Origin: Ministeria vibrans ATCC 50519
Taxonomy: Eukaryota; Protista; Filasterea
Assembly: GCA_943704425.1 (NCBI GenBank)
Contig: CALSCP010002236.1
Location: 14,328 to 78,327 of the forward strand
Length of the DNA: 64,000 nucleotides
Reading direction: 5' to 3'
The notes below the pieces were generated by a model. The model was not told the DNA's origin. It saw only the letters and a list, made by a program, of their open reading frames with translations, and ran no database searches. Within the stretch, counting starts at the first letter, position 1. Each line of letters opens with the position of its first letter. Shown here piece by piece: positions 7,836-10,459 of the stretch. The position numbers and the translations under genes were made by a program.

Positions 7836-7966
7836 AACATCAAGCGACAGAGAGAGGAGAGCGAGAAGAGGGGGTTTTTTAACATCATGACATTCTTTTT
7901 TTAAAACAATGGAATACTAAGAAGTGGGTATACATTAAGAATAATTATAATCATTGTTGCTTGAAA

Positions 7967-8260
7967 CTAGACCGCTTTCTGACTGAGTCGTTCGCGTTGC
8001 TTCTCTTCCGCTTTTGCACAACACACTTTGAAATCTGCAATCTCTTTTGCACACTTCTCTTGCTGGAAGTTTTTCCACTGAAGACAGTCTTGAATTGCGC
8101 ACGCCTATATAATAATAATAAAGCGTGTGTGAGAGATCACTTTGAGACGGACGAAAGACATAAATAATACATGGAGCACCCAAAAGATGCTCACAACGCA
8201 CATCTGTCGAACCTGAGTTTTGCACACCCGACCACAAAGATCCCTTTCCCCGCCTGGCAT
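7967..8260 (-). CDS. CMC4: CMC4/p8-MTCP1-like twin CX9C mitochondrial intermembrane-space protein (61 aa)
   Basis: Exons 8260-8213 and 8104-7967 give MPGGERDLCGRVCKTQ|ACAIQDCLQWKNFQQEKCAKEIADFKVCCAKAEEKQRERLSQKAV*. It has two CX9C motifs and resembles the CMC4 pattern C..QAC.IQ.CL......KC...I.....CC. Not in the ORF track. Confidence 0.8.
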
Positions 8261-8276
8261 TTCCTCGTCAATGGCA

Positions 8277-8625
8277 CTACAGTGCCCGTTGATAGGAGTT
8301 TCCGTGCTCAAAGCGCCACGACTCGGCTTCAACGAGGCGCAGGAGAGCAGCGCCGTTCAAATCTGAATGACGAACGAAACAAGACACTCAGAGCTGTTCT
8401 CTCCACTCGTCTGACGTGGCTGCGTACCTCCCAAGGGCGCTTTCTTAGTCGGCTCGGTGGCTGCTATTGCAAGGACGTCTTCAACAGCTGCACGAGCGAA
8501 CGAGCGAGAGAGAAAGAGAGAGAGAAATGAGCTGATTTGAAAGAAAAACTAACTCAATTCGTACAGATAGAGGGCACGTCTGGGAGAGGTAATGTTTGGT
8601 CGGCCGTGTCTCTTTTGTCAGACAT
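8277..8625 (-). CDS. Small 68-aa protein (3 exons) with an APC16-like C-terminal motif
   Basis: Exons 8625-8565, 8487-8428 and 8362-8277 have GTACG donors, pyrimidine-rich CAG acceptors and matching phase 1/1. Translation: MSDKRDTADQTLPLPDVPSISVEDVLAIAATEPTKKAPLGDLNGAALLRLVEAESWRFEHGNSYQRAL*. 'LVEAESWRFE' recalls APC16 'LEADEWRFK' (weak match). Confidence 0.6.
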
Positions 8626-8824
8626 TCACGGTAGACAAAAGAAAGAAAGAGAAAAAGTAAATTCAAACTTGAATGGAACAAAATTTTATCGAGTGAGACG
8701 AAAGAGAAAATAAGCAAAATACTACGGAAAATCCTCGATTTTGGCACCCAGTGATTATTGTGTACTGTTTAGGCACTAGAATTTATAGAAGGAGAAACTA
8801 AACAACGTATAACCTTTCAATAGT

Positions 8825-10459
8825 TCACAGCTCATCGACAAAGTCTTTTTCCTCCCTCAGACCATCGGTGGGGCTATCAGTGGTGGCACACTCAGGCAAA
8901 TGGTCGTCGTGGAGCGTAAGGTAGGTGGGGAATGCGTTGGGGCGCACACAGCCCGTGAGGGCGCGGTTGAGGGCGACGTTGAGGAGGGCGAGTCGCGGAA
9001 GACGGGCGAGACTCGGCGGGACATCGCCTGTCAAATCGTTGTTTTGCAGCTGAAGGTGCTCGAGGCGTGTGAGCTGTCCGAGAGAGTCCGGAATGGGCCC
9101 GTGGAGGTCGTTGTTGAAGAGATCGAGGGAGCGCAGCTTGGGCCAGTCAGTGCCAATCCAGTCGGGAATGGAGCCTGAGAGGAACGTCCCGTCCACCCAA
9201 AACTTCTCAATGCGATGCCAGTTGCGAAGGGACTCGGGAATGGGGCCCGAGAGAGAGTACTGACGGCAGATCCAGGGGTGTTCTGTCGCGTACTCAGCGA
9301 CCGACTGGTAGAGCGGGCGACAGAACACTTTGGGGTCCTTGGGGGGGCAAGGCACCCGTCCCTGTTGGAACGCCACGAAGACACGCAGGCTTTCAAGGGC
9401 ACCCCACGCCGACGGGATCGCCGTGTTCATCAGATGGTTTCCGCTGACTTCGAGACGCACGAGAGACGTGAGCGCCCCAATGCACTCGGGCAGTTCGCCC
9501 ACGTAGCCCATGTTGAGCATGAGGACGCGCAGTTGCTTCAGCTCACAGATGGGACGGATCACATGAAAAGGTGCGAGCTCGCGCGTGGCGTACGACAGCT
9601 CAAGGAAGCGCAGGTTTTTGAGGCTGGCAAAGGCGGGCGGCATGAGCGAAGATGAGGGCGGCATCGACAGCATCTCGAGCTCTGTGAGCTTCTCGATGCC
9701 CACTGGCCAGTGACCCTTGATTCCGTTGAGGCTCACGTCAAGCACGCGCAGTTTTGCCAGGTTTGTGACGCAGCTGGGCATAAAGTTGGTGAGGTTGGCG
9801 CGCGGAAGGACCAGACCGACAATGCGACGCTCGTCGCCGACCGTCTCACAGATGACGTTGGAGCATGCACAGGGGTTGTCGCTGCCATGCCGCTTGCACA
9901 CGGTCCAGTAGGGACCTCCGGTGCCGTCGTAGATGCAGCGGAACGCCTCGTGGTCGTGCTCGTTGAGCGGCGCTGCGTCCTCCACACTGGCGCCGTTCCT
10001 GCGGCGGCGCTCGTCGCGCTTAGCCAAGTGGTACGCCGGAATCCAACGCTCAATCAGGTTGTTGCCGAACGCAGCGCGCGCGTCGTCGTCGTTCTCCCGA
10101 AACACCTCGCGGCGCGACGTGGTGAAGGCGCGGCTGATCTTCTGTCCGAGCGCCGGTTGTTCATCAAACAAGTTGAGGTTTTTCCAGACCTCATCTGCGA
10201 GATCAAACGTCACATGCCGGCACGACGCCGCCGAGCCGCACACACAGGAGAGCCCTCGACAATTCTCCAGCAGCTTCTGCTCCAGTTGCGCGTTGTGTTT
10301 GATTTTGTTGGGACATTTGAGTTGGCTGTAAAATGTGGTAAATTCGCTTTTGACAAACTGCACTTCGCGCTTCATGGCTGCCTGCTCAGGCTTGCTCTGA
10401 GGGACCGCGGCCAACACACACCATACGGCAGTGGCGACGACGAGCAATGCCGTGCGCAT
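8825..10459 (-). CDS. Secretory-pathway leucine-rich repeat protein (plant-type LRR), ending in ...VDEL
   Basis: Signal peptide MRTALLVVATAVWCVLA, repeated LxxLxLxxNxLxGxIP units (LRSLDLFNNDLHGPIP, LEHLQLQNNDLTGDVP), no TM segment, single exon. Confidence 0.85.
   Translation of the reverse strand: MRTALLVVATAVWCVLAAVPQSKPEQAAMKREVQFVKSEFTTFYSQLKCPNKIKHNAQLEQKLLENCRGLSCVCGSAASCRHVTFDLADEVWKNLNLFDEQPALGQKISRAFTTSRREVFRENDDDARAAFGNNLIERWIPAYHLAKRDERRRRNGASVEDAAPLNEHDHEAFRCIYDGTGGPYWTVCKRHGSDNPCACSNVICETVGDERRIVGLVLPRANLTNFMPSCVTNLAKLRVLDVSLNGIKGHWPVGIEKLTELEMLSMPPSSSLMPPAFASLKNLRFLELSYATRELAPFHVIRPICELKQLRVLMLNMGYVGELPECIGALTSLVRLEVSGNHLMNTAIPSAWGALESLRVFVAFQQGRVPCPPKDPKVFCRPLYQSVAEYATEHPWICRQYSLSGPIPESLRNWHRIEKFWVDGTFLSGSIPDWIGTDWPKLRSLDLFNNDLHGPIPDSLGQLTRLEHLQLQNNDLTGDVPPSLARLPRLALLNVALNRALTGCVRPNAFPTYLTLHDDHLPECATTDSPTDGLREEKDFVDEL

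What the first reader, a model, noticed from the sequence alone, without database searches (positions are those of the whole stretch)
7967..8625. Candidate bicistronic mRNA: spliced 68-aa ORF (APC16-like motif) followed by CMC4, with a leaky-scanning signature
Seen in sequence: two spliced ORFs on the minus strand are separated by only 16 nt (TAG-tgccattgacgaggaa-ATG). There is no AT-rich spacer of the kind that separates other genes here. ORF1's ATG has a poor context (cgtga ATG t, pyrimidine at -3). The spliced ORF1 plus spacer contains no other ATG in any frame, so the next AUG a scanning ribosome meets is the CMC4 start (gaggaa ATG, purine at -3). Read-through cannot fuse them, because TAG TGC CAT TGA follows and CMC4 is in a different frame. 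Established: this arrangement typifies nuclear bicistronic loci translated by leaky scanning, as described in green algae. Inference: one mRNA makes a possible APC16-like protein and a mitochondrial twin-CX9C protein. Neither gene is visible in the ORF track.
Basis: partly seen in the sequence, partly recalled or inferred. Interest (0 to 1): 0.78.

Follow-up and report, generated by a model that had tools for sequence, protein, structure and literature searches.

The report
Two small proteins, one spliced mRNA
In what is likely a single-celled relative of animals, spliced RNA contigs join an unknown 68-codon reading frame to the small mitochondrial protein gene CMC4 only 16 bases downstream, so one mRNA likely makes both proteins, a known kind of eukaryotic two-gene message; the proposed cell-cycle (APC16) identity of the first frame found no support.

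Summary
The anatomy is real. All three introns are removed in RNA-derived contigs. In 5 of 8 runs laid (4 studies), one contig spans ORF1's stop, the 16-nt spacer and the CMC4 start. ORF2 is CMC4 (Pfam PF08991, E 7.5e-10).

ORF1 looks selected. A 68-codon ORF arises in 0.6% of shuffles of the leader, and ATG-free stretches of this length are rare in this genome's coding DNA (2 of 72). But ORF1 has no homologue in any search of its single-exon pieces, its codon-pattern score is not significant, and APC16 was not hit.

Leaky scanning is the likeliest route to CMC4. Reinitiation or a separate CMC4 start site are not excluded, and the organism's start-codon preference is not established.

CMC4 abuts a second ORF in 10 of 35 metagenomic CMC4 clusters, usually as the first ORF. 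A fly CMC4-like uORF is already published. The host is probably a unicellular holozoan (best RME-8 hit Capsaspora). Verdict: a new member of a known kind, with the APC16 label unproven.

The parts
8626..8653 (-). Pyrimidine-rich 5' leader, at least 28 nt; true start site not mapped; an in-frame TGA lies directly before ORF1's ATG
   Evidence: Furthest 5' reach of a spliced contig (X5 record 9); sequence
8565..8625 (-). Exon 1 coding part: ORF1 start (T at -3, T at +4)
8488..8564 (-). Intron 1, 77 nt, GT..AG
   Evidence: contiguous record positions across it in X1, X6, X7
8428..8487 (-). Exon 2, 60 nt, inside ORF1
8363..8427 (-). Intron 2, 65 nt, GT..AG
   Evidence: joint in 7 of 8 runs
8277..8362 (-). 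Exon 3, ORF1 part: predicted helix ending in the EAESWRF motif, stop TAG 8279-8277, 64 nt before the last splice junction
8261..8276 (-). 16-nt spacer between the ORFs, no ATG, holds a second in-frame stop
8262..8297 (-). Predicted RNA hairpin (-15.6 kcal/mol) with ORF1's stop at its loop, ending one base before CMC4's AUG; a lead only
   Evidence: z about -4; 7 of 30 control coding pieces hold one at z -4 or stronger
8213..8260 (-). Exon 3, CMC4 part: start codon (G at -3) and first 16 codons
8105..8212 (-). Intron 3, 108 nt, GT..AG, inside CMC4
   Evidence: joint in 7 of 8 runs; no contig covers the intron
7967..8104 (-). Exon 4: CMC4 core and stop
   Evidence: PF08991 E 7.5e-10, 39.4 bits against cut-off 28.9; PDB 1hp8 E 0.0075
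7926..7966 (-). 3' untranslated part as far as one contig reaches; poly(A) site not mapped
   Evidence: X5 record 9 ends at 7926

Best explanation
One spliced transcript carries a 68-codon first frame and, 16 bases later, CMC4, and it likely yields two separate small proteins by leaky scanning: some ribosomes would start at ORF1's predicted weak AUG behind a short leader, and the rest would scan 223 AUG-free bases to the CMC4 AUG. Shown: the splicing, contigs that bridge both frames, the CMC4 family match, the lack of intervening ATGs and the different frames. Inferred: that ORF1 is translated and selected as a protein, that scanning rather than reinitiation feeds CMC4, and that CMC4 goes to the mitochondrial intermembrane space like its family. 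ORF1 is most likely a small non-globular protein with a C-terminal helix that binds a larger partner; an APC16-type APC/C subunit is one candidate (about 25%), not a result. The two products would have unrelated jobs and share a promoter. CMC4 translation across the last junction would shield the message from decay triggered by ORF1's stop, which lies 64 nt upstream of that junction.
For: Contigs spanning introns 2 and 3 together in X1, X3, X5, X6 and X8 (5 of 8 runs, 4 studies). In X5 a 480-nt contig covers 7926-8653 apart from both neighbours; the same-strand LRR gene 200 nt upstream lies on separate contigs in X1, X3 and X5. No contig enters intron 3, and the rest of exon 3 has no A+T-rich stretch or tested poly(A)-like hexamer, so an ORF1 message most likely runs through CMC4. 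ORF length is beyond chance (0.56%), and ATG-free 220-nt pieces are rare in local coding DNA (2 of 72, or 9 of 161 with the EGF-repeat gene). Two introns lie inside ORF1 and its GC by codon position is 0.65/0.46/0.57. Family precedent: a second ORF of 80 or more codons starts within -15..+35 nt of the CMC4 stop in 10 of 35 clusters, against 0-3 in each of seven further 50-nt bins. A p8MTCP1-like uORF is described in fly CG9865 (PMC2276209). The layout matches algal leaky-scanning bicistrons (PMC11291117).
Against: No homologue of ORF1's pieces in Pfam, PDB, 1.84 billion representatives (one hit, a bacterial repeat protein), the atlas, 115 CMC4 loci or 47 longer CMC4 proteins. ORF1's codon-pattern score is reached by 21% and 10% of stop-free shuffles under two training sets (CMC4 itself 7% and 5%). 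All 8 runs are 99% or more identical to the window, so no substitution test was possible. Contigs can join overlapping transcripts, and do so here: X1 and X3 run on into the convergent gene. A single ATG in the leader is not rare by itself (33% of shuffles). CMC4 as the second ORF is not enriched in the metagenomic set (0 of 20 clusters in the nearest bin). The start-context preference of this organism is unmeasured.
Confidence: 0.55

Rival explanations
1. ORF1 is not a functional protein. It is a long regulatory or incidental uORF in a twice-spliced 5' leader of an ordinary CMC4 gene, and only damps CMC4 output.
For: No homologue in any search. Codon-pattern score not significant. Lack of ATGs is expected of any 5' leader, and the window's finding was picked after the fact.
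Against: An ORF of this length arises in 0.56% of leader shuffles. Two introns join into one open frame while the other two frames are closed. The protein databases also lack this organism's own CMC4 exon and any close RME-8 relative, so a blank for ORF1 is weak.
Confidence: 0.2
2. The mRNA is bicistronic, but CMC4 is made mainly by ribosomes that finish ORF1 and restart 16 nt downstream, possibly helped by the hairpin around ORF1's stop.
For: The stop-start distance is inside the 20-nt range given for viral termination-reinitiation (PMC10275272 passages). The strongest hairpin of the mRNA sits on the stop and spacer. AUG depletion also fits reinitiation in part (PMC11892635 passages).
Against: Reinitiation works best after uORFs of a few codons (same passages), and ORF1 has 68. 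ATG absence covers all of ORF1, not only the stop region. Hairpins at z -4 or stronger occur in 7 of 30 control pieces.
Confidence: 0.13
3. ORF1 and CMC4 are two overlapping genes: ORF1's 3' UTR covers CMC4, and CMC4 protein comes from its own shorter mRNA starting inside ORF1.
For: Contigs cannot show start sites, and they merge overlapping transcripts at this very locus. FlyBase describes polycistronic loci with alternative monocistronic transcripts (PMC4528330 passages).
Against: No contig begins in or retains intron 2. Low-depth runs cover the ORF1 junction (7 of 8) as often as the CMC4 junction (7 of 8), a weak hint. No A+T-rich promoter-like stretch lies in exon 3. ATG absence across ORF1 would be unexplained.
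Confidence: 0.12

Closest known systems
Green algal bicistronic loci translated by leaky scanning (Duenas et al., PMC11291117 / PMC11892635; Gallaher et al., PMC7896298)
   Same: Short ORF1 (204 nt; algal medians 291-357), short spacer (16 nt; medians 40-183), short 5' leader (at least 28 nt; medians 54-83), no AUG before ORF2, small mitochondrial protein as a partner.
   Different: Host is probably a holozoan. ORF2 is as small as ORF1 (algal ORF2 medians above 1,100 nt). No CMC4 entry was found in the searched supplements of the two PNAS papers (one file not searched). No long reads, ribosome profiling or conservation data here.
Drosophila CG9865 uORF1, a putative p8MTCP1 (CMC4) homologue, and other twin-CX9C conserved-peptide uORFs (PMC2276209; plant group 8 uORFs, PMC2075485)
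   Same: A CMC4-type twin-CX9C gene sharing a transcript with an unrelated ORF, with partners that differ between lineages (same pattern).
   Different: There the CX9C protein is the upstream ORF ahead of a long main ORF; here CMC4 is downstream of an unknown small ORF.
CDC26-TTM3 bicistron of plants and algae, and the Chlamydomonas APC15-domain/SNM1A pair
   Same: A small APC/C subunit gene sharing an mRNA with an unrelated gene; this is the precedent that makes an APC16 reading plausible.
   Different: Those ORFs match their Pfam or InterPro families; ORF1's pieces match none.
Human CMC4/MTCP1 locus
   Same: CMC4 shares a transcription unit with an unrelated ORF (PMC2276209 passage).
   Different: Unrelated partner. 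From recall, not from a call, the two human products come mostly from alternative splicing.

Membership tests
CMC4 (p8MTCP1) family | Match to Pfam PF08991 above the curated cut-off | tested here: met
   39.4 bits against 28.9, E 7.5e-10, last exon alone
CMC4 (p8MTCP1) family | Twin CX9C motif | tested here: met
   C13-x9-C23 and C34-x9-C44 in the spliced ORF2; PDB 1hp8 hit E 0.0075
CMC4 (p8MTCP1) family | [quoted passage not shown] | not testable with these tools
   Follows from family knowledge only
APC16 (ANAPC16) | Sequence match to the APC16 family profile or to solved APC16 chains | tested here: inconclusive
   No Pfam family and no APC16 chain for exon 1 (20 aa) or exon 3 (28 aa) at E up to 10. 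Exon 2 and the full spliced ORF1 were not scanned, and the pieces are short, so the blank is weak. The W-R-F resemblance is recalled and comes from no call.
APC16 (ANAPC16) | One extended helix of about 40 residues that lies along APC3/APC7 (PMC11473103 passage) | tested here: inconclusive
   A single-sequence model of a 36-residue piece (8 residues intron-derived) gives one 24-residue helix, mean pLDDT 73; compatible but unspecific
APC16 (ANAPC16) | Binding to the APC/C TPR subunits | not tested
   No APC3 or APC7 sequence of this organism was at hand
Leaky-scanning bicistronic mRNA | Both ORFs on one transcript | tested here: met
   Spliced contigs bridge both in 5 of 8 runs, 4 studies. Contigs are not single molecules, so this is met at contig level only.
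Leaky-scanning bicistronic mRNA | No separate monocistronic ORF2 transcript | not testable with these tools
   Only contigs were served; they cannot show start sites
Leaky-scanning bicistronic mRNA | AUG depletion before ORF2 | tested here: met
   0 ATG in 220 nt after ORF1's start; 2 of 72 and 9 of 161 local coding pieces are ATG-free
Leaky-scanning bicistronic mRNA | ORF1 start weaker than ORF2 start by the organism's own consensus | tested here: inconclusive
   T versus G at -3; only 17 of 28 unverified candidate starts have a purine there
Leaky-scanning bicistronic mRNA | Both ORFs translated and conserved | tested here: inconclusive
   CMC4 conserved; ORF1 longer than chance but without homologues; no ribosome profiling

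The most novel reading that the evidence does not exclude
ORF1 is a divergent APC16, which would move this APC/C subunit from animals back to their single-celled relatives and make it the third small APC/C subunit found on a two-gene mRNA after CDC26 and APC15. Its partner CMC4 is a gene that has been paired again and again with unrelated neighbours across eukaryotes, which points to a hidden class of unannotated bicistronic microprotein genes in unicellular holozoans.
Probability: 0.2. Interest if true: 0.65.

Novelty: new member of a known kind. Interest (0 to 1): 0.42.

Why it matters
Bicistronic nuclear mRNAs are described in green algae, plants, flies and humans; two searches listed no paper on them in unicellular holozoans, though the library lacks most subscription journals. 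A case with RNA support in a probable close relative of animals suggests that small subunits scored as lost in such genomes may be hidden in leaders. A 2011 survey found APC16 only in jawed vertebrates and APC12, APC13 and APC16 not in Capsaspora or choanoflagellates (PMC3195147 passages). The survey of CMC4 loci gives a ready list of further candidate bicistrons with different partners, which makes the question of why CMC4 is so often paired testable.

Tried and rejected
No RNA holder listed on record: the run search labelled every holder's RNA status a guess or unknown. I take the laid runs as cDNA because they lack exactly the GT..AG introns. Substitution test on ORF1: not possible, the four extra runs labelled as other organisms or unknown are 99% or more identical to the window at this locus. 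Whole-genome work: no genome held. Homologues of ORF1: Pfam on exons 1 and 3, PDB (two designed repeat proteins only), representatives (the one hit P0001 is a 2,426-aa bacterial-type repeat protein, rejected), atlas (top score 0.90, unnamed), tblastn against 115 CMC4 loci (best E 0.086, on the opposite strand), motif scan of 57,106 nt upstream of 113 loci (no strict hit), 47 longer CMC4 proteins as possible fused annotations (none). Close CMC4 relatives: none by word search; best core identity 17 of 29 among 59 clusters. Read-through or splice fusion: rejected by frames and the second stop. Upstream extension of CMC4: its frame is open for 32 codons upstream with near-cognate codons, not favoured because the ATG gives a family-typical N-terminus. 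Three-gene message with the upstream LRR gene: rejected, separate contigs with a gap. Codon-pattern test: looked strong against wrong frames but not significant once shuffles were made stop-free. Hairpin at the spacer: not unusual in strength. Earlier findings: three look-ups, nothing returned. No fold search was run, since a lone helix gives meaningless matches; no complex prediction was run.

Full report
Observation. Three GT..AG introns (8564-8488, 8427-8363, 8212-8105) define exons of 61, 60, 150 and 138 nt from ATG 8625 to TAG 7967. Spliced, they give a 68-codon ORF1, a 16-nt spacer and a 61-codon ORF2 in another frame. Only two ATGs occur in that stretch, the two starts. A second in-frame stop follows ORF1's TAG after two codons. 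ORF2's last exon matches Pfam CMC4 above the cut-off (39.4 against 28.9 bits) and the solved p8MTCP1 chain (E 0.0075, ranked beside CHCHD1/mS37 chains). Its cysteines form a twin CX9C (C13-C23, C34-C44).

RNA evidence. The run search listed 21 runs, none on record as RNA; I laid 8 of them, from 7 studies. All are assembled contigs. Intron 2 is skipped in 7 of 8 and intron 3 in 7 of 8. Intron 1 was dropped from the joint tables as a repeat, but record positions run on without a gap across it in X1, X6 and X7, and X5's coordinates leave room for exactly the 60-nt exon. One contig spans introns 2 and 3, and so ORF1's stop, the spacer and CMC4's start, in X1, X3, X5, X6 and X8 (5 of 8; 4 studies). 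In X5 a 480-nt contig covers 7926-8653 on its own. The same-strand LRR gene, whose stop lies 200 nt upstream, is on separate contigs in X1, X3 and X5. No contig enters intron 3, and the 64 nt left in exon 3 after ORF1's stop are 45% A+T without the poly(A)-like hexamers I tested. An ORF1 message therefore most likely continues through CMC4. Limits: contigs are not molecules and cannot show start sites, and in X1 and X3 the same contig runs on into the convergent plus-strand gene, so merging of overlapping transcripts happens here. A shorter CMC4-only mRNA is not excluded.

Is ORF1 a gene? For: in 20,000 dinucleotide shuffles of the 251-nt spliced leader, a complete ORF of 68 or more codons appears in 0.56%, and with a single ATG in 0.095%. 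In long coding frames of the window, 2 of 72 pieces of 220 nt (9 of 161 with the EGF-repeat frames) lack any ATG, so ORF1 is long for a leader and ATG-poor for a coding region, the pairing expected of a scanned-through first ORF. It holds two introns and has GC 0.65/0.46/0.57 by codon position. Against: at most one ATG alone is common in shuffles (33%). A three-periodic model favoured the right frame, but 21% and 10% of stop-free shuffles scored as well under two training sets, and CMC4 itself was borderline (7% and 5%). All laid runs are 99% or more identical to the window, so selection could not be measured. No homologue was found for exon pieces in Pfam, PDB, 1.84 billion representatives (one hit, a long bacterial-type repeat protein) or the atlas. 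The spliced ORF1 found nothing in 115 CMC4 loci or 47 longer CMC4 proteins. These blanks are weak: the organism's own CMC4 exon found no candidate, and no close relative appeared in the RME-8 search. I put functional translation of ORF1 at about 70%.

APC16? The resemblance rests on a short helix ending in W-R-F near the C-terminus and is recalled; no call showed an APC16 sequence. A single-sequence model of the exon-3 piece is one helix, compatible with APC16 being a single extended helix (PMC11473103 passages) but unspecific. The full spliced ORF1 was not scanned against family profiles. Precedent helps: CDC26 and an APC15-domain protein are listed at algal bicistronic loci (supplement searches of PMC11892635 and PMC7896298). 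A 2011 survey found APC16 only in jawed vertebrates (PMC3195147 passages); a nematode orthologue, emb-1, is recalled and seen only as a search term in a listing. About 25%.

Host. A 401-residue region of the neighbouring RME-8 gene hits Capsaspora best (54% identity, 495 bits), ahead of animal and unnamed proteins (469 bits and below; best 120 of 538 listed). This is a best hit, not a tree: a unicellular holozoan is likely. An identical spliced contig occurs in one seawater run (X6).

CMC4 elsewhere. A cysteine-pattern scan of metagenome contigs returned 115 loci from 40 of 64 parts of the collection; it sees only cores without an intron. I dropped 2 (a repeat and one with an internal stop), and the other 113 fell into 59 clusters at 80% core identity. 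Of 35 clusters with 700 nt or more downstream, 10 have a same-strand ORF of 80 or more codons starting -15 to +35 nt from the CMC4 stop, against 3, 2, 1, 2, 0, 1 and 1 in the next seven 50-nt bins. Four of the 10 partners match Pfam above cut-off: a carboxylesterase (L007), DUF938 (L009), acylglycerol kinase (L041) and a myosin TH1-like domain (L044, 30 ORFs scanned). Two more are conserved at 56-60% between members of their cluster (L021/L055, L026/L058), two share a 20-residue match (L051, L060), and two have no support (L020, L029). The length filter favours long transcripts, so 10 of 35 overstates the rate, and these loci hold 0-8 ATGs between the starts. Upstream pairing, as in the window, is not enriched (0 of 20 clusters in the nearest bin). 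One group of five loci does carry a conserved, unnamed 57-aa ORF ending 3, 3, 63, 4 and -4 nt from the CMC4 start with 0-1 ATG between. None has an ORF1 homologue, and none is a close relative (best core 17 of 29).

Mechanism. Leaky scanning fits best. The leader is short (at least 28 nt), ORF1 has pyrimidines at -3 and +4, no ATG lies on the path, and 68 codons is long for reinitiation, which works best after a few codons (PMC11892635 passages). The weakness of ORF1's start is assumed from other eukaryotes; 17 of 28 unverified candidate starts in the window have a purine at -3. ORF1's AUG lies in the loop of a predicted 11-pair stem. Its stop lies at the loop of a -15.6 kcal/mol hairpin that ends one base before CMC4's AUG (z about -4). 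It is the strongest of 110 windows in the mRNA, but 7 of 30 control pieces hold one at z -4 or stronger. That hairpin and the 16-nt gap keep termination-reinitiation alive as a rival (PMC10275272 passages; PMC11952965 abstract). ORF1's stop is 64 nt before the last junction; translation of CMC4 on the same molecule would clear that junction, in line with the decay-immunity idea for polycistronic transcripts (PMC3951408 abstract). Whether junction-dependent decay operates in this organism is unknown.

Comparison and novelty. It works like the green algal leaky-scanning bicistrons (PMC11291117: abstract, first third of Results, passages) and meets their sequence-level features at contig level, but exclusivity and translation are untested. 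CMC4 on a shared transcript is already in print for Drosophila CG9865 (PMC2276209 passages), and a related twin-CX9C uORF changes partners between lineages (PMC2075485 passages and one section). Small polypeptides are over-represented at fly polycistronic loci (PMC4528330 passages). PMC13303939 (passages) does not mention CMC4 or APC16 in its main text. Searches listed no paper on this pair or on bicistrons in unicellular holozoans; most subscription journals are missing, one supplement of PMC7896298 could not be read, and other supplements were not searched.

Verdict. Real, RNA-supported, probably bicistronic locus; a new member of a known kind. Confidence 0.55 in two proteins by leaky scanning, 0.2 in the APC16 reading with its wider claim. 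Interest 0.42.

Noticed in passing
window:6168-7835 (+): The RME-8 match stops about 100 residues short of the Capsaspora protein's end and is followed by PH (PF16652, E 1.3e-10) and C2 (E 0.0023) exons. Contigs covering the C2 exons run more than 2,400 nt beyond 7000, more than the exon space before RME-8, so RME-8 may be fused to a PH-C2 tail; its likeness to intersectin's tail is recalled.
   Followed up: partly
window:8704-9069: One low-depth contig in X5 skips 8791-8860 with GG..AG ends on the + strand; the 3' end looks like a plus-strand acceptor. Possibly an antisense RNA from a bidirectional promoter with an unusual donor, or an artefact; 1 of 8 runs.
   Followed up: no
window:7816-7966: CMC4 and the convergent C2-domain exon end about 130 nt apart; X1 and X3 contigs join them, X5 keeps them apart, suggesting overlapping 3' ends in some samples.
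   Followed up: no
L007:647-1372, L009:441-1061, L041:241-1539, L044:324-986: CMC4 directly followed (-11 to +28 nt) by a carboxylesterase, DUF938, acylglycerol kinase or myosin TH1-like gene: further candidate bicistrons with CMC4 first.
   Followed up: partly
L031:1231-1401 (also L034, L036, L073, L076): A conserved, lysine/alanine-rich 57-aa ORF ends 3 to 63 nt before (or overlaps) the CMC4 start with 0-1 ATG between; no Pfam match and no atlas hit above 0.83.
   Followed up: partly
L021, L055, L051, L060, L026, L058: Unnamed 87-177 aa ORFs with a hydrophobic stretch start within -1 to +20 nt of the CMC4 stop and are conserved between loci.
   Followed up: partly
window:29581-50871 (-): Two very long open frames (5,664 and 1,432 codons) with cysteine-rich EGF-like repeats by eye; not annotated further.
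   Followed up: no
window:7862: A C-to-A difference from the window in X1 and X3, outside the finding; probably a strain variant.
   Followed up: no
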